This document shows positions 11,700-52,440 of a stretch of 64,000 nt of DNA, piece by piece (position 1 is the stretch's first letter; each line of letters begins with the position of its first letter). The notes under the pieces were generated by a model, which was not told the origin of the DNA, made no database searches, and saw only the letters and a program-made list of their open reading frames with translations. The position numbers and the translations under genes were made by a program. This DNA is from Ignavibacteriales bacterium (GTDB taxonomy: Bacteria; Bacteroidota; Ignavibacteria; UBA10030): contig JAPLFQ010000033.1 in assembly GCA_026390595.1 (NCBI GenBank), positions 26,574 through 90,573 on the forward strand, written 5' to 3'.

Positions 11700-11878
11700 G
11701 AAGAGAGGGTGATCTTTCGAATTCGTACTTATTGGGGAATAATGAGTCCACCGCGTGATATGACCTGCTGAAATTAGCTAAATCCGCATGCTTTAGCAAG
11801 GACCTCGCTTGAGTTTCGAGGATCGTGTGGTTATATTCATCAAGAGCACCAAGCACACCTCTCACACCCGCCAGGAAT

Positions 11879-15809: not shown

Positions 15810-15999
15810 AGTTCTCTCAGCGGTACTTTCGCGTGACCGGCAGAGCAGTCCGCACCTTGTGGTCCGCACAGCTACTCATCGACACGGTCCGGCTGGTCAC
15901 GATCGGCTTGATCCTCGCGGAAGACGCCGTTACCCTGATCACAATACCAGCAGCATGAGACTGAAATCCCTGCAACTACTTCAACGGAAGGAATGAACA

Positions 16000-18486
16000 A
16001 TGAAGAAGACTCTTTTCATTGTGCTGTCAGTATTTTTTATCAGCGGGTGTGCGATGTTCAAATCGTCATCCGAAGGATCTCCAGCGAAGCCGGATTCGGC
16101 GTCGCAGAAGCCCCCCGTGCCGCCGGCGGGAATGAAACCGTATGCGCAGGTCATCACCAAGGAAGCCAAATCCGACACGGGGCTCTTTATTGTTCATCGG
16201 ATCAAAGAGAAGTTCTTCTTCGAGATTCCCAAGAAAGAGGTCAAAAAGGACTTCCTGCTTGTGTCCACGCAGGCAAAGACGCAAACCGGAATGGGATACG
16301 GGGGAGATGCGATCAATGAACAGGTGGTTCGGTGGGAACGTGTAGGAGACCGCATGCTGTTACGGAGCAGAATATTCGCTTCCGTCGCGGCAGACACGCT
16401 TCCGGTGGCTGCGAGCGTGAAAAAGGCAACGCTGCCGCCTATCATCATGGCGTTCGATATTCAAGCAGTCAACAAGGATAGTTCAAATGTCGTGATCGAT
16501 GTGACCGACCTCTTCACAACAGATGTCGCCGAGATGGGTATGAACCGGTTCCAGCGAGAGCAGTTGCGCGTTCGCCGGCTCGATTCAAAGCGTTCATACA
16601 TCGAATACAGCCGCGCGTTCCCGGATAACATCGAGACGGAAGCAACGGTCACGTTCGATGCCGCTCAGGTCCCGATGGATGCGTCGCTTGCATCCCTGAC
16701 CATCACCATGCACCATTCAATGGTTCGGTTACCGGAAAAACCTATGATGCCGCGGTTGTCTGATTCACGGGTTGGATTCTTCGGCGTGGCTCTGTATGAC
16801 TACGGATATGATTCACAACGTGCCGAACAGCGCCGGTATATCGCGCGGTGGCGGCTGGAACCAAAAGATCCCGGAGCGCTTGCCCGCGGCGAGCTCTCTG
16901 AGCCGGTGAAGCCGATTACGTTTTTCATAGACCGCGGCACGCCGGACAAATGGAAACCCTGGCTGAAGAAGGGTGTGGAAGACTGGCAGGGGGCATTTGA
17001 GAAAGCCGGATTCAAAAACGCTATCATTGCGAAGTACGCACCAAGCGAAAAGGAAGACCCGAATTGGAGCGGTGAGGATGCCCGATACTCGACGATTCGC
17101 TGGCTCCCATCCGAGATCGAGAACGCCTATGGCCCGCACGTCAGTGACCCGCGCACCGGCGAGATCCTCGATGCTGATATCGGTTTCTTCCATAATGTGA
17201 TGAATCTCGCGCGCGATTGGTATTTCGTTCAGGTTGGCAATCTCGATCCCTCAGCGAAAACGCTTCCGTTGCCGGACAGCCTGATGGGCGAGCTTCTTCG
17301 TTACATCGCGGCGCACGAAGTCGGACATTCCCTCGGCTTTCCCCATAACTGGAAGGCGACCTCGCAGTACCCGGTCGACAGCCTGCGAAGCGCTTCCTTC
17401 ACGGCGAGATACGGCAATGAGGCTTCTATCATGGACTACGGGCGCTTCAACTACGTCGCCCAGCCTGGTGACAATGCGCGCCTGATTCCGATGATCGGGC
17501 CGTATGACAAGTTTGCAGTTGAATGGGGTTACAAGCCGATCCCCGGCGCAAAGACCCCCGATGAGGAAAAAGTTGAGCTCAACAAGATCGCTTCGAGGCA
17601 GGAAAAAGAACCGTATCTGCGGTTTGGGGTTTCAGATGCCAGCGACCCGACGGTTCAGACGGAGGACATGGGTGCAGACCCGGTGGCAGCGACGAAGTAT
17701 GGCCTGAAGAATATCAACGCCATTGCTGACATGCTGATCAGCGCGACAACAAAAGACGGAGAAGACTACAGCACGCTGAAGGAGGTCTATGGACAACTCC
17801 TCGCACAGCGCAGCAGGGAATTTGGTCATGTCGCGAACTATGTCGGTGGTATTGTTCGAACCGAGAAAGTAGCTGGACAGACAGGCGTCATCCATGTCCC
17901 TATTGCCCGCGAGAAACAGAAGGAGTGTATGGACTTTCTTCAGAAAGAGGCATTCCGCACCCCAACTGAACTGCTGCGGCCGAGCATCCTGGCTCTGATT
18001 GAGCCATCAGGAGCCGTCGACCGGGTTCTGGCAGGCCAGCGTCAACTCGTCAACATTCTTCTGAATAACGATCGGATGTCGCGATTGATCAATTCGGCTG
18101 CTCTTGCAAAAAAGGGGGACAATCCCTACAAGTTGAGCGAAATGCTCGAGGATCTCCGGACAGGTATTTGGAGTGAATTGAAATCGGCCATGGTGAAGAC
18201 CGACGTCTATCGTAGGAACCTTCAACGCACCTACATCGATGCGATGGGGGCAAAGCTTAATCCGCCGCCGGTGATAATGCCTGTTGGATTGCCGGCAGGA
18301 TTCTCGCCCGCTCCTCCCGCCTCAGTACCGGGCGAGGCGCGTGCGCTGATTCGGACGGAGCTACTCGATCTCGATGCAACCATTGCTGCCTCAATGGCAA
18401 AAGCGGGAGACCGGGAAACGAAAGCTCATCTGAAGGACAGCAGGGATCAGATAGCCAAAATCCTGTATCCTGACAAGTCGAAATAA
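16000..18486 (+). CDS. Zinc-dependent metalloprotease lipoprotein (HExxH), Bacteroidota DUF-type
   Basis: Lipoprotein signal MKKTLFIVLSVFFISGC. HEVGHSLGFPHNW zincin motif. About 830 aa, typical of the widespread uncharacterised 'zinc-dependent metalloprotease' family. Confidence 0.75.
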   Translation: MKKTLFIVLSVFFISGCAMFKSSSEGSPAKPDSASQKPPVPPAGMKPYAQVITKEAKSDTGLFIVHRIKEKFFFEIPKKEVKKDFLLVSTQAKTQTGMGYGGDAINEQVVRWERVGDRMLLRSRIFASVAADTLPVAASVKKATLPPIIMAFDIQAVNKDSSNVVIDVTDLFTTDVAEMGMNRFQREQLRVRRLDSKRSYIEYSRAFPDNIETEATVTFDAAQVPMDASLASLTITMHHSMVRLPEKPMMPRLSDSRVGFFGVALYDYGYDSQRAEQRRYIARWRLEPKDPGALARGELSEPVKPITFFIDRGTPDKWKPWLKKGVEDWQGAFEKAGFKNAIIAKYAPSEKEDPNWSGEDARYSTIRWLPSEIENAYGPHVSDPRTGEILDADIGFFHNVMNLARDWYFVQVGNLDPSAKTLPLPDSLMGELLRYIAAHEVGHSLGFPHNWKATSQYPVDSLRSASFTARYGNEASIMDYGRFNYVAQPGDNARLIPMIGPYDKFAVEWGYKPIPGAKTPDEEKVELNKIASRQEKEPYLRFGVSDASDPTVQTEDMGADPVAATKYGLKNINAIADMLISATTKDGEDYSTLKEVYGQLLAQRSREFGHVANYVGGIVRTEKVAGQTGVIHVPIAREKQKECMDFLQKEAFRTPTELLRPSILALIEPSGAVDRVLAGQRQLVNILLNNDRMSRLINSAALAKKGDNPYKLSEMLEDLRTGIWSELKSAMVKTDVYRRNLQRTYIDAMGAKLNPPPVIMPVGLPAGFSPAPPASVPGEARALIRTELLDLDATIAASMAKAGDRETKAHLKDSRDQIAKILYPDKSK

Positions 18487-18505
18487 GGCAGTTCTATCAA
18501 ACTCA

Positions 18506-18540
18506 AAAAGCCCGGGGGGTTGATCCCGCCGGGCTTTTTT
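18506..18540. terminator. Bidirectional rho-independent terminator between convergent genes
   Basis: AAAAAGCCCGGGGGG-ttgat-CCCGCCGGGCTTTTTT. The GC-rich hairpin is flanked by an A-tract and a T-tract. Confidence 0.65.
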
Positions 18541-18560
18541 GTGTCCACGATGGAATGATC

Positions 18561-24890: not shown

Positions 24891-26207
24891 CTATCGAGGT
24901 CTGTTCTTCCTTTTCCAGAACAAGAAGACCGGAACACCCGCGGCGAGGAAAGCAAGACCTGCTAACGACTCTGCTGGCTTTTCGAAAAGTGTATAGATCA
25001 CAAAGAGTGTTGAAATCGTCACGAACAATATGGGCGTTAGTGGGTATCCAAGCGTCCTATACGGGCGCTCCGCCTGCGGTAGACGCCGTCGGAAAATAAA
25101 AATGCTGAATGCTGCGAGCGCAAAGAATATCCAATCTGTAAACACAACATAGGAAATCAGGCTTTCGAATGTTCCCCAAAACAGGATGAGCACGATCGCC
25201 CAGGCAGATTGAAGGGCAATGGCGAGCATCGGTGTCCGAAATCTTGGATGGACCTCGGCGACTTTCTTGAAGAAGAGGCCATCATTCGCCATCGCATAGT
25301 AGATCCGCGGAGCCGTCAGTGTGTAGATACCGGTTGTCCCGAATGTGGATATGAAGATCGTGATTGCAATCAGACTGCCCCCTACAGGTCCGAGAACAAG
25401 GCTGATGGCATCCGCTGCAACGCGAGGAGAAGCTGCCATCTGAGCTGGAGTCATGAGAAACATGTATGCAACATTCGTCGAGATATAGATGATCGTAACC
25501 GCGAGTGCCCCGATGATGAGCGAACGAGGGACACTCCTTTTTGGGTCTTTTGCTTCCGCTGCCGTGAAGGTCGCGTGCTGCCAGCCGCCAAAAGACCAGA
25601 GAACGCTCACGAAGGCGAGCGTCAGAGCGCTCGACAGACCGTTCGGAAGGTGTCCGAGCGGTATTGAGAAATCCGTGGTCGTGCTCGATCCCCAGCCAAT
25701 ACCAACTGCGATGAGAGCAACTATCCCAAGGATCTTCAGGACCGTAAACAAATCGGAGAAGATGCCTCCGGCTTTAACGCCCAGAATGTTTATGATGGTA
25801 ACCAGGATGATTCCCAGTATTCCCACCAGGGTTGTGTGCTCGCCGGCAAACGGCACGAAGAAGCCGAGGTAGGTGGAAAACGCCAGAGCCAAAGCAGCAA
25901 GTGCACCGGTGTTGACGACAAGGAAATATGCCCATCCGTACAGAAAACCGACCAGCCCCCCGTACGCTTTAGTAAGAAACACATACACACCGCCCGCCCG
26001 GGGCATCATGGCACCGAGTTCTGCATATGTCAGGGCACCGCACATGGTTGTGAGACCGCCGAGAACCCAGATTCCGAGAATCCAGACAGGAGAGGGGAGC
26101 GCTTTTGCAATGAGTGCTGGTGTAAGGAATATTCCGGAACCGATGGATGACCCTATAGCGATCATGGTCATGTCAAAGAGGGAAAGCTCACGCCGGAGAT
26201 CTGCCAT
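24891..26207 (-). CDS. Amino acid permease (APC superfamily)
   Basis: 12-TM protein with the APC family N-terminal signature (FDMTMIAIGSSIGSGIFLTPA). Confidence 0.85.
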   Translation of the reverse strand: MADLRRELSLFDMTMIAIGSSIGSGIFLTPALIAKALPSPVWILGIWVLGGLTTMCGALTYAELGAMMPRAGGVYVFLTKAYGGLVGFLYGWAYFLVVNTGALAALALAFSTYLGFFVPFAGEHTTLVGILGIILVTIINILGVKAGGIFSDLFTVLKILGIVALIAVGIGWGSSTTTDFSIPLGHLPNGLSSALTLAFVSVLWSFGGWQHATFTAAEAKDPKRSVPRSLIIGALAVTIIYISTNVAYMFLMTPAQMAASPRVAADAISLVLGPVGGSLIAITIFISTFGTTGIYTLTAPRIYYAMANDGLFFKKVAEVHPRFRTPMLAIALQSAWAIVLILFWGTFESLISYVVFTDWIFFALAAFSIFIFRRRLPQAERPYRTLGYPLTPILFVTISTLFVIYTLFEKPAESLAGLAFLAAGVPVFLFWKRKNRPR

Positions 26208-26217
26208 AAGGGAAGTC

Positions 26218-26254
26218 GATTGTCGCTGGTGATATTATTGTTGGGGGATTGTCG
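26218..26254. repeat. Two copies of the GATTGTCG octamer in the 5' region of the APC permease gene
   Basis: GATTGTCG at 26218-26225 and 26247-26254. The same octamer occurs three times upstream of proS (38292-38327). Confidence 0.4.
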
Positions 26255-26258
26255 TGAA

Positions 26259-28511
26259 CTATATCTGTATTTGGATAGCCTTGCCAATGACACTTTCGGC
26301 ATGATGTTCGCCATCGAGCCAAACCGTGAATCGTGATCTCCGGACGTCCACCCGGAGATATCTGCCTCGCACCAGGACATTGTCAACAGTAACGGAGTCG
26401 AGGTTGAATGGGAATGGATCGATGAGAACAGAAAACTCTTCCGGTCGTATTCCACACACATACTTCAGGATGAGGTCGTTTACCCAGGAATGCTGGTAGT
26501 CATCAATGCCGCGGTAGATACTGGGCGTTCCTGATTCGGGATTGTAGTGCTCGAAGCAGTTCGGGCGCCGGGGATCTCCGTCGAAGAACATCAATCTAAC
26601 GTACTTCGTCATGAACTCAGCCGCCTTCTTGCGCAGTCCTTTGTCTGAGAATGCGATCGCCGCGGCGGCGAGGACTTCTGCTATGTGGCTGTTCGTCATC
26701 GGCCAGACCCGCCCGTTCCACGGACAGTTCATGCGCTTGCCTTTCCAGGTGGGAGAGGCTGAAAAGAACTCATCATCCGCACTGGAGGAGGGAACGGGGT
26801 AGGGCGTCCAGAATTCTTTCTTGTTTAGAAGATGACGCTTGAGTCCGGGGAGATGACTCCTGTCTACGATGTCGGTGAAGTATGGATAGAAACACGTGGC
26901 GGCCTTTACCAGGGTCCGATTTCCAGAGGCAGGATCGACATCAAAAAACATCTCCTGCTCGGAGTCCCACATTCTCTCGAGTACAGCCGTCTTGATCTTC
27001 CCGGCTTCGATTCTCCATAGCTCGCTTTCGTCGGTTCTGCCAAGTGTCTCGGCAACGGCCGACAACGCCCGTTTGAGCTCGTACAGATAGACGGTAACAT
27101 CGACTCCCTTGAGTCTGAATGCTTCGCCCCAATGTTCCTCGTCGGCCCGTGGATTGACCGCCGTATACCTGTGCATGTATTCCTGGCCCGTCTCATAATG
27201 ATTCTCGATGTCGTACAGTCCGCTGATCTCTTCGTCGCGTTCTTTGTCGAAATAGCCGGCGTACTTCTTCAGCCCTTCGTACACCTGCCCCAGGTAATCC
27301 GCGGAAGGATGCATGGCGTGAAGCTGAAGCAAGGCATTTCCCCAGTTCGCGTGGTAGAACATTTCCTGCCGGTAGTGGTTCATATCGATGTAGCCACGGA
27401 ACCCGCCATCATCGCGTTGGTTGTCGATAAATGTCAGAAGGCTTCCGCGGGCGAGCTCAGGATCGTGCATCCAGCGGTTTTCCAGGATATGGCATTGAGC
27501 ACTGTACGAAATGGGAGCGCGAAAATAGCCGATCCCCTCACAGACAAAAGGACGTTTGTAGTTTCCATCATTGCCGTACTGGGTGTTAAGTTTGAGTCCG
27601 TACCATCGATACCAGTAGTAGCGAGTCAAGAACTCGTCCGAGGAATTAAAATGGGGGACAGAGGCGAAGTGATCGTTCCAGCTGATTCTGCTCAGTTCGG
27701 CCGGATTGTTCTGGCGGAGAGCCGCACGTACGTTGCCATAGGTCTCATCGGACGAGGGGGAAGCCGCGAAGGCTATTGGTATTTCAGCTTCCATTCCTGG
27801 TTTGAGCGTGATCTCTGTGTGAAGTCCTGCATAGATGAGCCCCTCCTGTTCCGATCCCGTAATCTCGCTGGTGTTCTGCAATCTCCCTTCGTGAAACGTC
27901 TCGAACCAGGGAGTCAGAGCCCAATGAGGCTGGACAGCAGTCCGCTCGCTGAGACTGACGGAATAGGATTGGTTCGATGCACGCATTGCAAGCGCGCAGG
28001 CAATTTCAACGTGCGGTGCCACCGAGGGACGTACGAATTTGGTGAACGCAATTCCGTCACGACCCCGCTCCACGTCGGTTATCCAAGCCGATGATTTGGA
28101 TGGGACGATTTCCTGAATGGTCCATGCCACGAGGTGAAGGCGGAGTGTATTGCGTGAGCGGTTTTTCAATGTGACGACACTGAGCGCTACATCGTTGGGA
28201 AGAAGGGATTTTGTTTCCAGCACCTGAACATGCCGCGCATCTCCTTTGAGCGTACAATCGTATTCCTGGGTCATGAAAGCCGGATTCCAGGTTCGTCTGC
28301 AAAATGTAAGTGGGGACTCCCGTCCCGCGTCATCGAGAATCGCCCAAGTGAACAGAGGTTTGATCTCATAGTTATAGTAGTGCGCTTCATCCCAGAATCC
28401 GGGGAAATCAAGAAAGAGAGGGAACGTGGGAGCCCATAGCAGGCGATTTCCGCCGCCGAGGTACCATTTGTCGTTTCGCTCAAGATAACGGAGCAGGTCG
28501 ATTTTCTTCAT
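26259..28511 (-). CDS. Six-hairpin (alpha/alpha)6 glycoside hydrolase/phosphorylase-like protein, 750 aa (GH63/GH37/GDE-like clan)
   Basis: N-terminal beta-sandwich plus C-terminal helical barrel. Motifs FYHANWGNALL and NCPWNGRVWP (NGxxWP type). No signal peptide. Family not resolvable by eye. Confidence 0.55.
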   Translation of the reverse strand: MKKIDLLRYLERNDKWYLGGGNRLLWAPTFPLFLDFPGFWDEAHYYNYEIKPLFTWAILDDAGRESPLTFCRRTWNPAFMTQEYDCTLKGDARHVQVLETKSLLPNDVALSVVTLKNRSRNTLRLHLVAWTIQEIVPSKSSAWITDVERGRDGIAFTKFVRPSVAPHVEIACALAMRASNQSYSVSLSERTAVQPHWALTPWFETFHEGRLQNTSEITGSEQEGLIYAGLHTEITLKPGMEAEIPIAFAASPSSDETYGNVRAALRQNNPAELSRISWNDHFASVPHFNSSDEFLTRYYWYRWYGLKLNTQYGNDGNYKRPFVCEGIGYFRAPISYSAQCHILENRWMHDPELARGSLLTFIDNQRDDGGFRGYIDMNHYRQEMFYHANWGNALLQLHAMHPSADYLGQVYEGLKKYAGYFDKERDEEISGLYDIENHYETGQEYMHRYTAVNPRADEEHWGEAFRLKGVDVTVYLYELKRALSAVAETLGRTDESELWRIEAGKIKTAVLERMWDSEQEMFFDVDPASGNRTLVKAATCFYPYFTDIVDRSHLPGLKRHLLNKKEFWTPYPVPSSSADDEFFSASPTWKGKRMNCPWNGRVWPMTNSHIAEVLAAAAIAFSDKGLRKKAAEFMTKYVRLMFFDGDPRRPNCFEHYNPESGTPSIYRGIDDYQHSWVNDLILKYVCGIRPEEFSVLIDPFPFNLDSVTVDNVLVRGRYLRVDVRRSRFTVWLDGEHHAESVIGKAIQIQI

Positions 28512-33837: not shown

Positions 33838-33879
33838 TAAGTCTTTCGCTCAAAAGATGACCGTGTTCCCTCAATCACC

Positions 33880-35073
33880 TCATCGGGCAGAGAGAGCCTT
33901 GAATACTTCCCTCGTCGCATCTGCCGCCGTACGGATTTCGTCCAGTGAATTATAGAAGTGGGGAGCGAATCGGAGCTTCCCTCCGCGCAGGGAAATGTAG
34001 ATTTTTCTTCGTGTCAGTTCTTCGAAGGCTGCGGTGGGGTCGACTCCCGACGGCGGCGCGATCGTCATGATGCCTGAACGCTCATGAAGCGCTACAGGGG
34101 AATAGAGAGACACTCCATCCATACGGTGGAATTCTTCGAGAAGAGCTCCGGTCAAAGCCAGCACATGGGACTCGATGACCTGAGGTCCGACTTCGAGAAG
34201 CGTGCTCAGAGCCGCGTGCATTCCCCACATGCCGGGGATGTTGACGGTGCCTCCCTCGTAGCGGTTCGCCGTCGGTGTGAGGGCCTGCTCGAAATTAAAA
34301 AAGTCCCATGGGTTTTCGACTGAAAGCCAACCAAGATATTTTTGGTGTATCCTTGCCTGGAGTTCTTCGGTGACATAGAGAAAGCCGATTCCCTGCGGTC
34401 CCATTTGCCACTTTGCGGCCCCGGCTGCCATACCGTCGATTTTCATCGCCTGGACATCCACGGTAACCCCTCCAACGGCCTGCATGGCATCTACGACGAG
34501 CAGAATACCCCGGGCATGGCACACCTCGCCGAGTACGGCCAGATCCGCACGGTATCCGGATAGAAATTGAACGGCGCTGATGGCCAAAATACGCGTGCGA
34601 GGTCGCAGTGCTGCGTACACCGCCTCCGGCCTGATGGTTCCGTCAGGGCAATGGATGATATCAATTTCGACTCCCTGGCTCTTCAGGTGATAGTACGGAT
34701 AGACATTGGACGGAAATTCGAGGTCATTGAGAAGGATCCGGTCTCCCGGTTTCCAATCGAGGCCCGACGCGATAACATTGAGCGCATCAGACGTGTTGCC
34801 GGCGAAGGCGATACGGTCGATCGATTCTGCGTTGATCATTCGTTGAACACACTTCTTCGTTTCCTCGATCTGCTTGACGTCCTCCCAGTAGGTCTCGATC
34901 TTGCCGGAAGAACGATCCTGCAAATGTCCAACTTGAGCACGCAATACCCGTGTCGAGAGCGGACTGACGGCAGCGTGATTCAGATAGATCACTCCCTGCT
35001 CAGTGTGCGGAAATAACTGTCGGAATTGCTGAAGCGGTTCGAATGGAATGAGACGAGCTTGGGGAGAAGTCAC
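33880..35073 (-). CDS. Class V aminotransferase-fold PLP-dependent enzyme (cysteine desulfurase / SufS-CsdA-like family)
   Basis: 397 aa. Typical fold-type I class V layout with a candidate PLP lysine (AAKWQMGPQG). First gene of the minus-strand carbohydrate operon. Confidence 0.75.
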   Translation of the reverse strand: MTSPQARLIPFEPLQQFRQLFPHTEQGVIYLNHAAVSPLSTRVLRAQVGHLQDRSSGKIETYWEDVKQIEETKKCVQRMINAESIDRIAFAGNTSDALNVIASGLDWKPGDRILLNDLEFPSNVYPYYHLKSQGVEIDIIHCPDGTIRPEAVYAALRPRTRILAISAVQFLSGYRADLAVLGEVCHARGILLVVDAMQAVGGVTVDVQAMKIDGMAAGAAKWQMGPQGIGFLYVTEELQARIHQKYLGWLSVENPWDFFNFEQALTPTANRYEGGTVNIPGMWGMHAALSTLLEVGPQVIESHVLALTGALLEEFHRMDGVSLYSPVALHERSGIMTIAPPSGVDPTAAFEELTRRKIYISLRGGKLRFAPHFYNSLDEIRTAADATREVFKALSAR

Positions 35074-35464
35074 GAGTGGCCGGTGATGTTAGGAGACGAT
35101 TCGTTCTGGGCAAGTGTACTCAAAGAGACACGGAAAATCAAGGATTTCGGGGTTAAATGCCGGGTTGTTTTTGGGAGTCAGGATGGCTACCATAGGTTCG
35201 ACGCGCTTTCCCTTCCGGCTGTTCACCCACCCGTGGGTGGTGGATAGAAAGATGGCGTCGTGCGAAAATTCACTACGTCAACAGACTGGTATTCGTCCAA
35301 TCTCAGGCCGGCAATCGATCCAATTTGCACGCTGCTGCAATGCAGTTGGATAGGCAACATCTTCACTCACTCCTGCGGGCAGGGAATAGGTGATTGCTTC
35401 GACTTGAATCTGGAGACAATTTGCATAGATTTGCTTTCTGTAACCCACCGTGGCCGTTGCCCAC

Positions 35465-37668: not shown

Positions 37669-37994
37669 AGTACGACCCTCTTCGAATCGTTCTCGTTGCA
37701 TTTCTTCCGCTTTTCATTCGGAGTGGTCTCTATTTCCTGGCCTGCAAGGTTCGTTCTATTCAGATATCGTTGATGAGTTGCATCGTGATTGCAGGTTCTG
37801 GTGTACTCCTCACCATCGTCCCTATCCCACTGCCATACGCGTTTTCGCGTCTGCTGGCGATTGGTCTGGCAATGTTTCTTATGACGCGATACACCGAAGC
37901 GGAACTTTTTCCAGACGTGGTGCTCATCCCGCTAGCCGTTGAGGTACTTTCGGGCGTACTCACGGAATTGTCGCTCTTGCCTTTCGCTTCCTAG
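37665..37994 (+). CDS. Small hypothetical membrane protein (109 aa)
   Basis: Three predicted TM helices. ATGA overlap with the TPR gene stop suggests translational coupling. Confidence 0.4.
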   Translation: MKYDPLRIVLVAFLPLFIRSGLYFLACKVRSIQISLMSCIVIAGSGVLLTIVPIPLPYAFSRLLAIGLAMFLMTRYTEAELFPDVVLIPLAVEVLSGVLTELSLLPFAS

Positions 37995-38170
37995 AACAAT
38001 CCGTTTGAGGGCGTGGGTTTCTTGCCTCGAATGAATGTCGATCCGAGCGCACAACGTCTCAGGCAACTTCTGCTTTTCAATCCGATGCAGAAATTGAAAG
38101 GCCGCCGGAAATCTCCTGGTCAGTGTTTCGCTGGCTGGCCAACTTGTTCCCGGTGGAATGCACAACAGTC

Positions 38171-38201
38171 TTGCACGCCCCCTGAAATTTCCGTAACTTT
38201 G
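38171..38201 (+). promoter_or_regulatory. Bacteroidota-type sigma-A promoter for tRNA-Arg (-33 TTG / -7 TAACTTTG)
   Basis: TTG at 38171-38173, 20-nt spacer, TAACTTTG at 38194-38201. The predicted TSS falls 6-8 nt later, just before the tRNA 5' end at 38213. Confidence 0.4.
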
Positions 38202-38212
38202 CCATTGAATAT

Positions 38213-38286
38213 GCCCCCGTAGCTCAGCTGGATAGAGCATCGGTTTCCTAAACCGGTTGTCGGACGTTCGAGTCGTCTCGGGGGCA
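38213..38286 (+). tRNA. tRNA-Arg (anticodon CCT)
   Basis: Folded by hand. Acceptor GCCCCCG/CGGGGGC, D-arm GCTC-AGCTGGATA-GAGC, anticodon arm TCGGT-TTCCTAA-ACCGG, T-arm GGACG-TTCGAGT-CGTCT, discriminator A. No encoded CCA. Confidence 0.85.
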
Positions 38287-38291
38287 CGAAA

Positions 38292-38327
38292 CATTGTCGA
38301 TTGTCGAATTTCGATTTCCGATTGTCG
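38292..38327. repeat. Three direct copies of (C/G)ATTGTCG within 36 bp, between tRNA-Arg and proS
   Basis: CATTGTCG (38292-38299), GATTGTCG (38299-38306) and GATTGTCG (38320-38327), in the sequence acATTGTCGATTGTCGaatttcgatttccGATTGTCGttt. Confidence 0.4.
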
Positions 38328-38404
38328 TTTGATCAGTCCGAAGTTTGCATCCCTGCTCATCGATCTTGAGCTAACCATTCACCAAATAACCACTTAGCTT
38401 TGCC

Positions 38405-40099
38405 ATGCGATTCTCCAAGGCCTTCATCCCCACTCAGAAGGAAACTCCTGCTGACGCGACCATTCCAAGTCACCAACTCATGCTCCGGGCGGGGCTCATG
38501 CGCCAGCTCACCGCAGGAATTTATTCATTTCTGCCGCTCGGGTACCGATCGATGCTCAAGGCGATGCAAATCGTACGCGAAGAAATGAATGCAATCGGGG
38601 GTCAGGAGTTCTATCTGCCTGCCCTTAATCCCGAATCGCTTTGGATTCAGACGGGTCGCCGGAACATTCCGAACTTCATTCTGAGCATCAAGGAGCGGGA
38701 TCTCGTTCTTGCCCCAACGCACGAAGAAGTTATTGCCTGGATCGCCTCCATGCACATCCAGTCATACAAGGACTTGCCACAGATATGGTACCAGATACAA
38801 ACGAAGTTCAGGAACGAACCGCGGCCGCGATCAGGAGTCTTGAGAGGCAGGCAGTTCATCATGAAGGATTCCTATACGCTTGACACGACCTGGGAGGGGC
38901 TCGACAAGGGATATGAGGCTCATGCACAGGCGTATCGAAGTATTTTTGCCCGCTGTGGATTGAAATTCTTCGTGGTCGGTGCCTCCAGCGGCGCGATGGG
39001 GGGGACGGGATCGCAAGAATTCATGGTCGAGTCTGATTCTGGTGAGGATACAGTTGTCCTTTGCGAGAAGTGCGGCTATGCCGCCAACCTGGAAGTTGCA
39101 GGCTCGAGAATCCCGGCAGCCGGACGAGACGGTGACAGCAAGCCGAGTGCAGACATTCATACGCCAAATGTCCATACCATTGATGAGCTGGCCGCATTCT
39201 TGAAGGTTGACAGAGCGCGACTCGCGAAATCCCTGGTCTATCGTCACAATGGAAATCCCCTCCTCATCCTCATGGTTGGTAATGACCAGCTGAACGAATC
39301 GAAACTCACCTCTGCGCTGGGAGGCGGCGAGTTCCGCGCAATGGAGGCAGAAGAGCTCAAGGCTCTCACAGGAGCAGACGCGGGTTCGATTGGCCCTATC
39401 GGTTTGAAAGGATTTCGCATCATTGCGGACAAGAGACTTGAGGGCGCCAACAACCTGATCAGTGGCGCGAACCGAAACGACTACCATTTAGGCAACATCG
39501 ACATCGCTCGTGATGTCGCAGTCGAGGGCTACTTCGATCTGAGAACTGTTGAACCAGGCGAAACGTGCTCGGCGTGCGGATCGCCGCTGAAAATCTCCAA
39601 CGCGATCGAGCTGGGACATATCTTCAAGCTAGGCACGAAGTACGCCGATGCGCTCAACGTCACGTTTCTGGACGAGGGGGGACAGGCCAAGCCTGTGATC
39701 ATGGGCAGCTATGGCATCGGAATCGAACGAATCATCGCGTGCGCCATCGAACAGAACCATGATGCCGACGGCATTATCTGGGATCCATCGCTTGCTCCGT
39801 ATCTGGTACACGTCATTGCCATCAACATGAATAACGAAGATGTCGTCCTGCATTCCAATCAGGCATACAAATCGTTGAATGAGGCGGGGCTTGACGCTCT
39901 CTTCGACGATCGTACGAACGTCTCGCCCGGATTCAAATTCAAGGACGCCGATCTGCTTGGCATGCCAATCCAGGTCATTGTCGGCGACAAAGGGCTCAAG
40001 AACGGTCAGTATGAAGTGAAGGTGCGCCGCACAAAAGAACGATCAATGGTTCCGATCGCCGACCTTATCCCGACTGTCAAAAAGTTGTTGTCCATGTAG
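38405..40099 (+). CDS. proS: Prolyl-tRNA synthetase (bacterial type)
   Basis: 564 aa. Class II aaRS motifs and an INS editing domain. The N-terminus (MRFSKAFIPTQKETPADATIPSHQLMLRAGLMRQ) matches ProRS. Confidence 0.9.
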   Translation: MRFSKAFIPTQKETPADATIPSHQLMLRAGLMRQLTAGIYSFLPLGYRSMLKAMQIVREEMNAIGGQEFYLPALNPESLWIQTGRRNIPNFILSIKERDLVLAPTHEEVIAWIASMHIQSYKDLPQIWYQIQTKFRNEPRPRSGVLRGRQFIMKDSYTLDTTWEGLDKGYEAHAQAYRSIFARCGLKFFVVGASSGAMGGTGSQEFMVESDSGEDTVVLCEKCGYAANLEVAGSRIPAAGRDGDSKPSADIHTPNVHTIDELAAFLKVDRARLAKSLVYRHNGNPLLILMVGNDQLNESKLTSALGGGEFRAMEAEELKALTGADAGSIGPIGLKGFRIIADKRLEGANNLISGANRNDYHLGNIDIARDVAVEGYFDLRTVEPGETCSACGSPLKISNAIELGHIFKLGTKYADALNVTFLDEGGQAKPVIMGSYGIGIERIIACAIEQNHDADGIIWDPSLAPYLVHVIAINMNNEDVVLHSNQAYKSLNEAGLDALFDDRTNVSPGFKFKDADLLGMPIQVIVGDKGLKNGQYEVKVRRTKERSMVPIADLIPTVKKLLSM

Positions 40100-41539: not shown

Positions 41540-41627
41540 TCACAACCGCTGTTGACTCCCGGCTTAGTACTTCGTACTCTCTGCTTGGTCCACCAGCTTC
41601 CACTCATGTAGTATCATCCTGTTGAGT

Positions 41628-45438: not shown

Positions 45439-45454
45439 CGACCATTCACTATAT

Positions 45455-45495
45455 GCGAGAGGTCTGCGGAGACGCGGCTTCTCGCATTTTTGTTT
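45455..45495 (+). terminator. Rho-independent terminator after trxA
   Basis: GCGAGAGG...CTTCTCGC hairpin followed by ATTTTTGTTT. Confidence 0.55.
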
Positions 45496-45527
45496 CTATT
45501 GCAAGAACAGGCTAAAGGGCTATCCCG

Positions 45528-47294: not shown

Positions 47295-47307
47295 TTGAAA
47301 TCTGATT

Positions 47308-48409
47308 ATGTTCGAAGATCTTAAAGACAAGTTGGCCGAGCAGCAGAAGCGACTCGCGTCGCTGAGGGGGTATCTTTGACCTCGACAGCAAGCTCGTCGA
47401 CATCGGGAAACTCCAGGCCAGAACGCACGAGCAGGATTTCTGGAATGATAACGTTTCCGCTCAAAAAATACTGCAAGAGATAAACTCGAAGAAGGAATGG
47501 GTGACCGGCTGGGAGAAGCTGAACGCACTTGCGCAGGATACGGGAACTCTCATCGAGCTCGCCGAGGAATCGAATGAGAAAGGGATGGGGGAAGAGATCA
47601 ATGCCGAACTCAAGAAGCTGGACACGGAAATTGAACGCCTCGAACTCAAGAACATGCTCGGTGGCGTCGACGATGCAAAAAACGCTATCCTTGTCATTCA
47701 CTCTGGAGCTGGCGGGACGGAATCTCAGGATTGGGCGGAAATGCTTCTGCGGATGTACACCCGATGGTGCGAACGAAGCGGATTCAAGGTAAGCCTCGCC
47801 GACATTCTTGAAGGAGAAGGTGCCGGGATCAAAAGCGCGACTGTGGAAGTCCTCGGCCAGTTCGCGTACGGATACCTCAAAGCGGAAAACGGAGTGCATC
47901 GGCTCGTGCGCATTTCTCCGTTCGACGCAAACGCGAGGAGACACACGTCATTTGCTTCGGTGTTTGTGTATCCCGAAATTGAGGACGACGTAGAAATTGA
48001 AATTAATGTCGTCGATCTTAGGATCGACACGTTTCGATCGGGTGGCAAAGGGGGACAGAACGTCAACAAAGTCGAGACTGCGGTTCGTATCACGCACCTT
48101 CCGTCGGGAATTGTCGTCGCGTGCCAGCAGGAACGGTCGCAGTTCCAGAACAAGGAACGCGCGATGAAAATGCTGAAGTCGAGGTTGTATCAGCTCAGGC
48201 GGGAAGAGGAGGAGGCGCGACTCAGCGCCATCGAAAGCACCAAGAAGAAGATAGAATGGGGAAGTCAGATCCGCTCGTATACGTTTCAACCTTATACGCT
48301 TGTGAAAGACCACAGGACCGGGGTTGAATCCAGCGATGTGCACGGAGTGATGGATGGGGAGATCGACGCATTCATTCGCAGCTATCTTCTCGAAGGGGCG
48401 AAAAAGTAG
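47308..48409 (+). CDS. prfB: Peptide chain release factor 2, expressed via programmed +1 ribosomal frameshift at CTT TGA C (47374-47380)
   Basis: Frame 0 reads [23 protein letters not shown], with an in-frame TGA at 47377. Shifting +1 after CTT gives [13 protein letters not shown]... and continues into the ORF ending at 48409 (SPF-type RF2 body, GGQ motif [25 protein letters not shown]). An SD-like AGGGGG lies 3 nt upstream of CTT. Confidence 0.85.
47365..47380 (+). other. RF2 autoregulatory recoding site: internal SD-like AGGGGG + slippery CUU + UGA C
   Basis: AGG GGG TAT CTT TGA C matches the canonical prfB frameshift cassette. Confidence 0.8.
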
Positions 48410-51752: not shown

Positions 51753-52040
51753 ATGGCAAGAACAGCCACGAAAGTTGCAGCAAAAAAGAAGGCGCCGGCC
51801 ATGGCGCTTCCGTTTTCAACAAGGAACTATCAAATTCTCGGTTTGGGATTGGTCGTTATCATCCTCGGCTACTTCGCGCTTAGCCAGCCTCCCTGGGATG
51901 GAACTATGCCGCTTGTGGTAGCTCCGATCCTCCTGGTTCTCGGCTACTGTGTCATTATCCCGTTCGGAATTCTCTACCGGGGAAAAGCGGAACAGCAGGC
52001 TGCACCGGGTGCTCAATCTGAACAAGCGCAGCCAGGTTGA
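51753..52040 (+). CDS. Small membrane protein (95 aa, two TM helices, Lys-rich N-terminus)
   Basis: Strong ribosome-binding site AAGGAG 8 nt upstream of the ATG. The hydrophobic pattern fits a 2-TM protein. Confidence 0.5.
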   Translation: MARTATKVAAKKKAPAMALPFSTRNYQILGLGLVVIILGYFALSQPPWDGTMPLVVAPILLVLGYCVIIPFGILYRGKAEQQAAPGAQSEQAQPG

Positions 52041-52197
52041 TCGCCGCTGCTCCGGCGAGCGGGATGGTGGCGAGCAAGAACATCCACGCGTCGATTTCGA
52101 AATACGGAGTCTTGTTTTTTTCACGGTTTTTTTCTAAATTGAATCGATAAGCAACCTGCAGCCATGGTATGTCACTATCTGGCTCTGGCGTTTTGTC

Positions 52198-52269: not shown

Positions 52270-52356
52270 CACTGGCAGATCAGAGACCGGAGATTGGCGT
52301 GGCGTCAGCCGGGAGCAGCACGTGATGTGGAGAGGATAGATTTTGCATTTGCCATT

Positions 52357-52440
52357 GCCCGGATGGTGGAATTGGCAGACACACCGTCTTGAGGGGGCGG
52401 CGCTCGAAAGAGCATACGAGTTCAAGTCTCGTTCCGGGCA
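52357..52440 (+). tRNA. tRNA-Leu (anticodon GAG), class II with long variable arm
   Basis: Acceptor GCCCGGA/TCCGGGC, 3-bp D-stem, anticodon arm CCGTC-TTGAGGG-GGCGG, long variable arm, T-arm ACGAG-TTCAAGT-CTCGT. 84 nt. Confidence 0.85.

What the first reader, a model, noticed from the sequence alone, without database searches (positions are those of the whole stretch)
38292..38327. GATTGTCG octamer cluster shared by the proS upstream region and the APC amino-acid permease upstream region
Three direct copies of (C/G)ATTGTCG lie in the 118-bp spacer between tRNA-Arg and proS. Two further copies, 29 bp apart, lie at 26218-26254, immediately upstream of the APC permease start (26207, minus strand). 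I did not see this octamer in other intergenic regions that I checked (the gaps at 11700-11875, 15810-16000, 18487-18560, 33838-33880, 35074-35450, 45439-45527 and 52040-52197). Chance expectation for any given 8-mer in 64 kb is about 2 in total. Both downstream genes concern amino-acid supply (Pro-tRNA charging; amino-acid uptake). The repeats could be operator sites for a shared amino-acid-responsive regulator.
Basis: seen in the sequence. Interest (0 to 1): 0.5.

Follow-up and report, generated by a model that had tools for sequence, protein, structure and literature searches.

The report
Heptad repeat array after tRNA-Arg
The "octamers" before proS are part of a five-unit, 7-base repeat array that sits right after a tRNA-Arg gene and is kept in related Ignavibacteria. 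It belongs to a widespread class of intergenic heptamer repeats, and it is not evidence for a shared amino-acid regulator.

Summary
All four exact GATTGTCG copies in the window lie in two intergenic gaps. The total count equals chance (4 vs 4.15), but the placement is non-random (8 of 1000 shuffles).

The proS-side copies are three of five units of a heptad array, (ATTK-N3)5, at 38293-38327. It starts 5 nt after tRNA-Arg(CCT). Six related Ignavibacteriales species have ATT(G/T) cores at 7-nt steps at nearly the same offset after this tRNA; three of them also have five units. The last three unit positions vary freely, so the exact octamer is not conserved. The distance to proS varies (about 40-250 nt), so the array is anchored to the tRNA end, not to proS.

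Perfect (ATTGTCG)3 arrays occur in more than 120 metagenome stretches (GC 33-72%). They share a conserved GATTG core with two variable bases, differ in copy number between strains, and pair as convergent arrays whose variable bases are not complementary.

The permease-side copies are unphased and absent from all five distinct orthologous spacers examined (six loci).

Verdict: a new member of the known intergenic heptamer-repeat class. It is probably a phased array of recognition sites for an unknown binding protein. The shared amino-acid regulon is not supported.

The parts
38293..38327 (+). Left arm: a heptad array of five units with an ATT(G/T) core. The units are ATTGTCG, ATTGTCG(A), ATTTCG, ATTTCCG and ATTGTCG.
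   Evidence: TRF finds period 7, 5.6 copies, at 38293-38331. The register is shown. Period-7 autocorrelation is 0.57-0.60 against about 0.2 for other periods. Orthologous arrays occur at the same offset in L212, L210, L001, L002, L003 and L006.
38213..38287 (+). tRNA-Arg (anticodon CCT). The array starts 5 nt after its 3' end.
   Evidence: ARAGORN and Rfam tRNA at 61.9 bits. The tRNA-Arg(CCT)-proS adjacency is kept in relatives.
38171..38201 (+). Putative Bacteroidota-type promoter of tRNA-Arg: TTG, 20 nt, TAACTTTG, then 11 nt to the tRNA. It would drive transcription into the array.
   Evidence: Read from the sequence. The same TTGC(A/G)C ... TA(A/C)CTTTG arrangement is seen in L210 and L212, and a weaker match in L001. 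Calling it a promoter is inference from the published Bacteroidetes -33/-7 consensus (own knowledge).
38375..38398 (+). Decayed right arm: C/A-rich 8-nt units CCATTCAC CAAATAAC CACTTAGC just before the proS start. It corresponds to the CAAT-core 7/8-nt arrays of relatives.
   Evidence: Compared with L001 (CAACTAAC CACTTAAC), L212, L210, L003 and L002, which have CAATCAC/CAATTAAC arrays abutting the proS ATG. The homology was judged by eye and is moderately secure.
38405..40099 (+). proS (prolyl-tRNA synthetase, 564 aa).
   Evidence: Pfam tRNA-synt_2b, tRNA_edit and HGTP_anticodon. Homologues are named proline--tRNA ligase.
26218..26225 (-). Permease-side copy 1. It reads CGACAATC in the sense of the permease and ends 10 nt before the start codon.
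   Evidence: Not conserved in L083-L086, L207, L208 or L209.
26247..26254 (-). Permease-side copy 2. It reads CGACAATC in the sense of the permease and lies 4 nt after the stop codon of the upstream glycoside hydrolase.
   Evidence: It is 29 bp from copy 1 and not in 7-nt phase.
24891..26207 (-). APC-family amino-acid permease (438 aa). It is the third gene of a co-directional string: ABC permease, glycoside hydrolase, permease.
   Evidence: Pfam AA_permease_2. Synteny is shown.

Best explanation
**What it is.** The proS-side octamers are three of the five units of a heptad array, (ATT[G/T]-N3)5. The array begins 5 nt after tRNA-Arg(CCT). It is the left arm of a repeat element that fills the tRNA-Arg-proS spacer in a clade of Ignavibacteriales. 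The right arm is a set of CAAT-core 7/8-nt repeats in the opposite orientation, abutting the proS start. In this genome the right arm has decayed.

**Which family.** The element belongs to a GATTG-NN family of intergenic heptamer repeats that is widespread in uncultured bacteria.

**How it most likely works (inferred).** Each heptad offers one short core (ATTG on one strand, CAAT on the other) in a strict 7-bp register. The array would then be a docking platform for an oligomerising, core-specific nucleic-acid-binding protein acting at the tRNA-Arg/proS junction. Double-stranded DNA recognition is favoured, because both arms carry the same core in convergent orientation. Arrays gain, lose and homogenise units by replication slippage.

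**The permease copies.** They are specific to this lineage, unphased and not conserved. They are not evidence for an amino-acid regulon.

**Shown versus inferred.** Shown: the array anatomy, its conservation pattern, the family distribution and the absence of conservation at the permease. Inferred: that a protein binds, which molecule it binds, and what effect that has on tRNA-Arg or proS expression.
For: **Array anatomy.** TRF finds period 7 with 5.6 copies.

**Conserved phase and offset.** ATTK cores fall at these offsets after the tRNA:
- window: 5, 12, 20, 26, 33
- L212: 5, 12, 19, 26, 33
- L210: 6, 13, 20, 27, 34
- L001: 4, 11, 18, 25, 32
- L002: 13, 20, 27 (then an assembly gap)
- L003: 6, 13, 20
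- L006: 5, 12, 19

Information content is 2.0 bits at unit positions 1-3, 1.1 at position 4 and only 0.3-0.7 at positions 5-7. ProS identity to the window is 74-89% in these species. At a similar divergence the permease spacer keeps only about 53% identity. In this GC-rich clade, triple-phased ATTK arrays occur almost only in this spacer.

**Family.**
The 80 loci retrieved have GC 0.33-0.72.
- In 159 imperfect in-phase units, mismatches pile up at positions 5 and 6 (105 and 72) against positions 1-3 (12, 19, 25); chi-square p = 7e-28.
- 24 of 80 loci have a CAATC array downstream, against 1 of 80 upstream.
- In 15 convergent pairs, the core is 92-100% identical between arms. The two variable positions match only 26% and 41%, no better than non-corresponding units. 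So base pairing between arms is not what is kept.

**Slippage.** L098 and L152 are the same locus (about 98% identical flanks) with 8 versus 3 perfect units, an exact 35-bp difference. In the window, 3 of 5 units are identical.

**Precedent.** The ribbon-helix-helix protein omega (ParB of pSM19035) binds contiguous 7-bp heptads, in direct or inverted orientation. It needs four or more contiguous units for full activity (PMC9499535).

**No RNA family or structure.** Rfam gives nothing but the tRNA. The window spacer folds no better than shuffles (z = -0.16 and -0.21).
Against: - No candidate binding protein was identified, and nothing was tested experimentally.
- Heptamer repeats are generally over-represented in bacteria. 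This has been attributed to polymerase slippage without any function (Mrazek 2007, as summarised in PMC4679880 and PMC4692102).
- Some relatives' spacers do fold significantly: L212 z = -3.1, L002 z = -3.35, and the local L006 hairpin with a U-run z = -2.4. An RNA or terminator role is therefore not excluded.
- Conservation of the ATT core was measured on units that I anchored on ATT, so part of the 2.0 bits is by construction. The periodic recurrence itself is not.
- More distant relatives that keep the same tRNA-proS adjacency (L010, L013, L014, L018) lack the left arm.
- The significant sharing of the exact 8-mer with the permease gap remains unexplained.
- The metagenome arrays come from unidentified organisms.
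Confidence: 0.5

Rival explanations
1. It is a neutral simple-sequence repeat. The array is a heptanucleotide microsatellite made and kept by replication slippage in a weakly constrained spacer, with no sequence-specific function. The permease copies are chance or stray seeds of a slippage-prone word.
For: - It is a period-7 tandem array.
- Period 7 dominates arrays of four or more copies in 1.35 Mb of Ignavibacteria loci (24 of 45) and in the metagenome loci (182 period-7 arrays).
- Copy number differs between near-identical loci, 8 versus 3 units.
- The unit sequence differs between species at the same locus.
- The literature reports heptamer over-representation attributed to slippage. It also reports Xanthomonas repeats found between the same genes with length and sequence variation (PMC4692102; PMC4679880).
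Against: - Neutral decay should hit all seven unit positions equally. Instead the ATT(G) core is invariant and positions 5-7 are nearly free, both in the seven-species arrays and in unrelated metagenome arrays (p = 7e-28).
- Unit number (5) and offset from the tRNA are the same in four species with 85-89% ProS identity.
- The 24:1 orientation bias of paired arrays is not expected from slippage.
Confidence: 0.25
2. It is an RNA-level element. The array is transcribed as the tRNA-Arg 3' trailer and proS 5' leader. It would act as RNA in one of three ways. The G/U-rich left arm could pair with the C/A-rich right arm to occlude or expose the proS initiation region. It could form a processing or terminator hairpin. 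Or it could bind a single-strand RNA-binding protein such as a cold-shock protein or S1, one per heptamer, as proposed for TAACTGA repeats.
For: - A conserved promoter points into the array, and no terminator lies between the tRNA and proS in the window.
- The arms pair in predicted folds of L212 (z = -3.1), L002 (z = -3.35) and L003 (z = -1.85).
- In L006 the array is part of a hairpin followed by a U-run (z = -2.4).
- Right arms and the permease copies read C/A-rich in the sense strand directly before start codons. The permease leader is unstructured (MFE -0.7 kcal/mol).
- Many Ignavibacteria heptamer arrays lie less than 20 nt before a start codon, as do the TAACTGA repeats (PMC4679880).
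Against: - The window spacer itself has no significant structure (z = -0.16 and -0.21). The same holds for L001 (z = -0.04) and L210 (z = -1.3).
- In 15 metagenomic convergent pairs the variable positions of the two arms are not complementary (26% and 41% match). Pairing is therefore not the conserved feature.
- As RNA, the two arms would present different sequences (AUUG versus CAAU). As double-stranded DNA they present the same core.
- The left arm is 74 nt from the proS start in the window and about 250 nt in L001.
Confidence: 0.15
3. One reading: GATTGTCG is the operator of one amino-acid-responsive transcription factor that co-regulates proS and the APC permease.
For: - All four exact copies are intergenic and lie in just these two gaps (about 8 of 1000 by shuffling).
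- Tandem short-repeat operators exist for amino-acid regulators. MetJ metboxes are one example (own knowledge).
Against: - Both permease copies are absent in the orthologous 51-bp spacers of L083-L086 (CGGAACCA and TGATTATC in their place). They are also absent in L207, L208 and L209.
- The exact octamer is not kept upstream of proS orthologues. Only a 3-4 nt core is.
- The array is anchored to the tRNA end, not to proS.
- The orientation relative to the downstream gene is opposite at the two sites. Spacings are 7, 21 and 29 bp, with no common phase.
- There are no further sites in 64 kb.
- The same array occurs in very diverse organisms.
Confidence: 0.05
4. It is the remnant of a small non-autonomous mobile element (MITE-like). 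Its terminal inverted repeats are made of heptamer arrays, and it inserted next to tRNA-Arg in the ancestor of the clade.
For: - The architecture is left arm, variable centre, inverted right arm in L001, L002, L210 and L212.
- The strict polarity of paired arrays (24:1) is what terminal inverted repeats would give.
- tRNA 3' flanks are common insertion sites (own knowledge).
Against: - No target-site duplications were seen flanking 15 paired arrays.
- The arms are not complementary at variable positions and often differ in unit number, for example 4 versus 8.
- No transposase is associated.
- A dead element would decay uniformly rather than keep a periodic core.
Confidence: 0.05

Closest known systems
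Long simple sequence repeats with heptanucleotide units in prokaryotes (Mrazek et al. 2007, as summarised in PMC4679880 and PMC4692102), and cyanobacterial STRR heptamers
   Same: Both are head-to-tail 7-nt units in intergenic DNA. Seven is the most abundant unit length. Distribution among phyla is sporadic, copy number changes by slippage, and function is unknown.
   Different: The unit here is ATTGTCG (family GATTG-NN) and the host is Ignavibacteriales. The array is short (5 units), with the same unit number and offset in four species. It has a conserved core and free variable positions, which I did not find reported for those repeats.
Xanthomonas GGGAATC and Nostoc GGGGA(T/C)T heptamer repeats (Rehm et al. 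2015, PMC4692102)
   Same: [quoted passage not shown] Some occur as inverted array pairs. The reverse complement of GGGAATC is GATTCCC, so it also begins with GATT.
   Different: Those units are G-rich and were studied as G-quadruplex formers. ATTGTCG cannot form a G-quadruplex. The lineage is also different.
TAACTGA direct repeats of marine Beggiatoaceae, Cyanobacteria and some Bacteroidetes (MacGregor 2015, PMC4679880)
   Same: They are short sets (2-6 copies) of an intergenic heptamer, mostly forward-oriented just upstream of start codons. They are proposed binding sites for a nucleic-acid-binding protein (S1, cold-shock protein or CsrA). Other heptamer repeats are noted in Bacteroidetes spacers.
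   Different: The unit differs. The window's main array follows a tRNA, lies 74 nt from the start codon and is G/T-rich in the sense strand. Only the right arm and the permease copies resemble the position just before a start codon.
Heptad operators and centromere of the ribbon-helix-helix protein omega (ParB of plasmid pSM19035) (PMC9499535)
   Same: Both have contiguous 7-bp units, arrays of about 4-10 units in direct and inverted orientations, and a short conserved core per unit. In the omega system four or more contiguous units are needed.
   Different: The omega heptad consensus (WATCACW, from my own knowledge) differs from ATTGTCG. That system is plasmid-borne and sits next to its own par and copy-control genes. 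No ribbon-helix-helix gene was sought or found here. The resemblance is in mechanism, not membership.
7-bp repeat phase-variation loci of Haemophilus influenzae hmw1A/hmw2A (PMC8262952, PMC12721329)
   Same: [quoted passage not shown]
   Different: Those are long, highly polymorphic arrays in front of adhesin genes of a host-adapted pathogen. Here the array is short, with a stable unit number across species, and precedes a housekeeping gene.
SARP-family heptameric direct-repeat operators (PMC5930380) and MetJ metbox arrays (own knowledge)
   Same: Both are short direct repeats that serve as transcription-factor sites. MetJ binds 2-5 contiguous 8-bp boxes upstream of amino-acid genes.
   Different: SARP heptamers are spaced at about 11 bp, on one face of the helix (own knowledge). 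MetJ boxes are conserved in sequence across species and regulon members. Here only a 3-4 nt core is kept and no regulon is seen.

Membership tests
Intergenic heptanucleotide simple-sequence repeats (LSSR / STRR-like) | Head-to-tail copies of a 7-nt unit, longer than chance | tested here: met
   TRF finds period 7, 5.6 copies, score 43. Period-7 autocorrelation is 0.57-0.60 against a median of 0.26 for tRNA trailers.
Intergenic heptanucleotide simple-sequence repeats (LSSR / STRR-like) | Located in non-coding DNA | tested here: met
   It lies in the 117-bp spacer between tRNA-Arg and proS. The only ORF across it (37932..38378, minus strand) overlaps the tRNA and is spurious.
Intergenic heptanucleotide simple-sequence repeats (LSSR / STRR-like) | Copy number changes between close relatives (slippage) | tested here: inconclusive
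   Met for the family: L098 versus L152 has 8 versus 3 units. At this locus, four species all have five units, and no strain variants of the window were found.
   Permease: both copies are absent in L083-L086, L207, L208 and L209. proS: the exact octamer is absent in all relatives but L212, which has one copy. Only the ATTK core is kept.
   The offset from the tRNA end is constant (4-6 nt in six of seven species). The distance to the proS ATG ranges from about 40 to 250 nt.
   Copies with one mismatch or fewer in other gaps: 3, against about 4 expected.
   This needs DAP-seq, ChIP or EMSA.
Ribbon-helix-helix heptad operator (omega / ParB of pSM19035 type) | Four or more contiguous 7-bp units | tested here: met
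   There are five contiguous units. One 8-nt and one 6-nt unit keep the overall phase. The requirement is taken from PMC9499535.
Ribbon-helix-helix heptad operator (omega / ParB of pSM19035 type) | Unit matches the omega heptad consensus | tested here: not met
   The units are ATTGTCG / ATTKNNN. The omega consensus WATCACW is from my own knowledge.
Ribbon-helix-helix heptad operator (omega / ParB of pSM19035 type) | Cognate ribbon-helix-helix protein encoded with or near the array | not tested
   No search for ribbon-helix-helix genes was made. The flanking genes are a TPR protein, a 109-aa ORF, proS and an aldehyde dehydrogenase.
TAACTGA-type leader repeats | Unit is TAACTGA | tested here: not met
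   The unit is ATTGTCG.
TAACTGA-type leader repeats | Forward-oriented repeats within a few nt upstream of a start codon | tested here: inconclusive
   The left arm ends 77 nt before the proS ATG. The decayed right arm ends 6 nt before it. Permease copy 1 ends 10 nt before its ATG.
Known aminoacyl-tRNA-synthetase leader RNAs (T-box and others in Rfam) | Match to a curated covariance model | tested here: not met
   Only the tRNA is found, at gathering threshold and at E <= 1.
Phase-variation contingency locus (Haemophilus hmw type) | Highly polymorphic repeat number in front of a surface or virulence gene | tested here: not met
   The downstream gene is proS, and unit number is stable at five in four species.

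The most novel reading that the evidence does not exclude
GATTG-NN heptad arrays, usually in convergent pairs, could be the cis sites of a previously unrecognised and widespread protein-nucleic-acid system in uncultured bacteria. A core-specific oligomerising binder (ribbon-helix-helix-like on DNA, or a cold-shock/S1-like protein on RNA) would coat arrays of about five heptads. In this Ignavibacteriales clade it would control the tRNA-Arg(CCT)/proS junction. The two extra GATTGTCG copies before the permease would then be newly evolved sites of the same factor in this lineage.
Probability: 0.2. Interest if true: 0.65.

Novelty: new member of a known kind. Interest (0 to 1): 0.4.

Why it matters
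Why heptamer repeats are over-represented in bacterial intergenic DNA has been an open question since 2007. The papers I could read propose slippage, G-quadruplexes or an unknown binding protein.

This case adds three concrete observations:
- A short array is kept at the same offset in seven species, and with the same unit number (five) in four of them.
- A 4-5 nt core is conserved while the other positions vary freely.
- Paired arrays show a strong convergent polarity without complementarity at the variable positions.

Together these point away from pure slippage or hairpin models and toward oriented, core-specific recognition. That can be tested directly with a 35-bp probe.

For annotation, the practical lesson is that clusters of a short word next to tRNA genes in these genomes are repeat arrays. 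They are not evidence of a shared regulon.

Tried and rejected
- **Known RNA families.** The Rfam gathering and E-value searches gave only the tRNA.
- **Promoter and terminator scans.** Sigma-70 and intrinsic-terminator scans of the proS spacer found nothing. A sigma-70-like hit at 26287-26258 before the permease is not conserved in relatives.
- **RNA structure of the window spacer and array.** No better than shuffles.
- **Pro-codon-rich leader peptide across the right arm.** An open frame with several CCA codons exists in L003, but the same frame has a stop in L212 (read). Rejected.
- **Strain variants of the window locus, to see copy-number change.** Only identical Logan contigs from one sample were found.
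- **Taxonomy of the metagenome arrays from cluster names.** All six flanking proteins were in the collection, but none carried an organism name. Only the GC range can be stated.
- **General intergenic enrichment of GATTG/CAATC in the window.** Weak (12 against 6.9 expected, p = 0.05) and driven mostly by the arrays themselves.
- **CAAT enrichment upstream of start codons in the clade.** 38 sense against 16 antisense, but much of it comes from the proS arrays.
- **Gene context of the metagenome arrays from my crude ORF calls.** Unreliable, because the arrays are open in all frames and GC-rich DNA gives long spurious ORFs. Only a depletion in divergent gaps (1 of 25 classifiable) is suggestive.
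- **Target-site duplications around paired arrays.** None seen.
- **Empirical null from other Ignavibacteria loci.** Shared duplicated 8-mers occur in 33 of 92 loci. Most of these are A/T-only words in AT-rich loci; several of the rest look like true repeat families. None occurs in the GC-rich clade.
- **Literature search for the exact repeat.** Only unrelated primer sequences.
Full report
**Observation**

The coordinates are right.
- CATTGTCG lies at 38292. GATTGTCG lies at 38299 and 38320, in the 117-bp spacer between tRNA-Arg(CCT) (38213-38287) and proS (38405-40099).
- GATTGTCG also lies at 26218 and 26247. That is the 51-bp gap between a 750-aa MGH1-like glycoside hydrolase (26259-28511, minus strand) and the APC permease (24891-26207, minus strand).
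- There are no other exact copies. The total of 4 equals the shuffle expectation of 4.15 +/- 2.2, so the word itself is not over-represented.
- What is unusual is the placement. All four copies are in the roughly 4.7% of the window that is intergenic. GATTGTCG is the only 8-mer that occurs at least twice in each of two or more gaps. Only 8 of 1000 dinucleotide-preserving shuffles of the gaps produce any such 8-mer.
- Copies with one mismatch in other gaps are at chance level.

**What the proS-side cluster is**

It is a tandem array with a 7-base period. TRF reports 38293-38331, period 7, 5.6 copies. The units are ATTGTCG, ATTGTCG(A), ATTTCG, ATTTCCG and ATTGTCG. The array starts 5 nt after the tRNA. 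Period-7 autocorrelation of the tRNA trailer is 0.57-0.60, against about 0.2 for neighbouring periods and a median of 0.26 for 31 other tRNA trailers.

**Organism and relatives**

ProS and the permease are named as proteins of an Ignavibacteriales MAG. The best genome hits are Ignavibacteria/Bacteroidota MAGs. The tRNA-Arg(CCT)-proS adjacency is kept in many relatives.

In the six other species with 74-89% ProS identity (seven with the window), ATT(G/T) cores recur at 7-nt steps starting 4-13 nt after the tRNA (4-6 nt in all but L002):

| Species | Core offsets after tRNA-Arg |
|---|---|
| window | 5, 12, 20, 26, 33 |
| L212 | 5, 12, 19, 26, 33 |
| L210 | 6, 13, 20, 27, 34 |
| L001 | 4, 11, 18, 25, 32 |
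| L002 | 13, 20, 27 (then an assembly gap) |
| L003 | 6, 13, 20 |
| L006 | 5, 12, 19 |

Over the 29 units, positions 1-3 are invariant and position 4 is G or T. Positions 5-7 carry only 0.3-0.7 bits. L212, for example, reads ATTGCCG ATTGGCG ATTGTCG ATTGACT ATTGAAG.

A five-unit array with a periodic core is, and it keeps a fixed offset from the tRNA. Its distance to the proS start varies from about 40 to 250 nt. More distant relatives with the same gene adjacency (L010, L013, L014, L018) lack it. In this GC-rich clade, triple-phased ATTK arrays are found almost only in this spacer.

**The rest of the spacer**

Relatives carry a second set of repeats directly before the proS ATG. These have CAAT cores at alternating 7- and 8-nt steps (CAATCAC CAATTCAC, or CAATTAAC). 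That is the same core in the opposite orientation. The window has a decayed version at 38375-38398 (CCATTCAC CAAATAAC CACTTAGC), which resembles L001's CAACTAAC CACTTAAC.

A Bacteroidota-type promoter lies before the tRNA and is shared with L210 and L212 (a weaker match in L001). It reads TTG at 38171, then 20 nt, then TAACTTTG at 38194-38201. No terminator-like site lies between the tRNA and proS. The array is therefore probably transcribed, but this is inference.

**The wider family**

By my estimate, fewer than one would be expected by chance for a 21-mer. The 80 loci retrieved range in GC from 0.33 to 0.72.
- Period 7 dominates the tandem repeats in those loci (182 arrays). Other units include GATTGAC, GATTGAT, GATTGTT and GATTGCG.
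- In 159 imperfect in-phase units, mismatches concentrate at positions 5 and 6 (105 and 72) against positions 1-3 (12, 19, 25), p = 7e-28. This is the same core-plus-variable pattern as in the Ignavibacteria arrays.
- Two near-identical loci, L098 and L152, differ by exactly five units. This shows slippage.
- Arrays are often paired. 24 of 80 have a CAATC array within 220 nt downstream, and 1 of 80 has one upstream.
- In 15 such pairs the GATTG core is 92-100% identical between arms. The two variable bases match only 26% and 41%, no better than non-corresponding units. Unit numbers can differ between arms. So base pairing between arms is not what is maintained.
- No target-site duplications were seen.

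**The permease side**

The glycoside hydrolase-permease spacer has the same length (51 nt) in L083-L086, whose permeases are 88% identical. There the two octamer positions read CGGAACCA and TGATTATC, and overall spacer identity is about 53%. L207 (83%), L208 (79%) and L209 (77%) also lack them.

The two copies are 29 bp apart and not in heptad phase. In the sense of the permease they read CGACAATC, in an unstructured C/A-rich leader (MFE -0.7 kcal/mol). They therefore look like a recent gain in this lineage.

It remains unexplained why they match the very unit to which three of the five trailer heptads are homogenised in this genome. The coincidence is unlikely: about 1e-3 by my own rough calculation, or 8 in 1000 from the shuffle test. 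A shared binding factor, ectopic conversion or seeding of a favoured heptamer are all possible.

**Mechanism**

- *Shown:* the array anatomy, the conservation of phase, unit number and core, the family distribution, slippage in the family, and the lack of conservation at the permease.
- *Inferred:* each heptad offers one ATTG/CAAT core to an oligomerising, core-specific binder. Double-stranded DNA recognition is favoured, because the two arms present the same core only as duplex DNA and pairing is not conserved.
- *Closest working analogy:* the ribbon-helix-helix protein omega of pSM19035. It binds contiguous 7-bp heptads in mixed orientations and needs four or more contiguous units (PMC9499535).
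In favour of the RNA reading, some relatives' spacers fold significantly (L212 z = -3.1, L002 z = -3.35; L006 has a terminator-like hairpin). The window's spacer does not.

**Comparison with what is known**

Heptanucleotide repeats are the most abundant long simple-sequence repeats in many prokaryotes, and their function is unknown (Mrazek 2007, as summarised in PMC4679880 and PMC4692102). Described families include cyanobacterial STRR, Xanthomonas GGGAATC and Nostoc GGGGAYT (PMC4692102), and TAACTGA in Beggiatoaceae, Cyanobacteria and some Bacteroidetes (PMC4679880). I found no paper containing the ATTGTCG repeat.

The element fits this class as a new member. It is not a member of the omega, MetJ, SARP, T-box or Haemophilus phase-variation systems; see the membership table.

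**Verdict**

A shared amino-acid regulon is not supported. Interest is moderate. The local finding is an ordinary-looking repeat. However, its conservation pattern and the properties of the wider family give a testable handle on what heptamer repeats do.

Noticed in passing
window 47308-48409 (+), frameshift site 47365-47380: This is prfB (release factor 2) with the classical programmed +1 frameshift site AGGGGG TAT CTT TGA C. Joining frame 0 (ATG at 47308) to the +1 frame gives a full RF2 with SPF and GGQ motifs. It explains the apparent 206-bp gap at 47295-47500.
   Followed up: yes
window 38171-38201 (+): A Bacteroidota-type promoter precedes tRNA-Arg: TTG, 20 nt, TAACTTTG, then 11 nt to the tRNA. 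The same arrangement is seen in L210 and L212, and a weaker match in L001.
   Followed up: partly
window 38395-38407 (+): TAGCTTTGCC directly abuts the proS ATG and closely resembles the tRNA -7 box TAACTTTGCC. As a promoter it would start transcription at or inside the ATG, giving a leaderless mRNA. L210 has TCAGTTTTGCC at the same place; other relatives do not.
   Followed up: no
window 52271-52320 and 52340-52360 (+): The tRNA-Lys 3' trailer has a period-7 autocorrelation of 0.48, against a median of 0.26. Three phased ATTK units (ATTTTGC ATTTGCC ATTGCCC) run into the 5' end of tRNA-Leu.
   Followed up: no
L001 13400-13425: In the relative L001, short CAAT-type heptamers (CGCAATT CGAAAAT CACA) lie directly before the dnaE start codon. 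The window has nothing similar before its dnaE (41540-41621).
   Followed up: partly
L006 2671-2735: In L006 the post-tRNA heptads form the stem of a hairpin followed by UUUUU (z = -2.4). In that species the array region looks like the tRNA-Arg terminator.
   Followed up: partly
L208 2440-2500: In a relative whose permease is 79% identical, GACAATC GGCAATT followed by TGAATTT TGATTTG lies about 25-50 nt before the permease start. A 61-aa ORF is inserted between the hydrolase and the permease. It is another GACAATC-type word near this gene, but at a non-orthologous position.
   Followed up: no
L013 9934-9996; L023 7024-7160; L031 13203-13379; L019 4065-4121: Other Ignavibacteria carry long heptamer arrays with unrelated units. 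L013 has (AAAAATC)9 directly before proS. L023 has (TACGTTA)7 followed by the inverted (AACGTAA)7 just after proS. L031 has (AAAACGT)10.7. L019 has (ATTCGTA)8.
   Followed up: partly
window 26258-26287 (-): A sigma-70-like TTGGCA, 18 nt, TATAGT overlaps the stop codon of the glycoside hydrolase. It would start transcription at the first CGACAATC copy. It is not conserved in L083-L086.
   Followed up: partly
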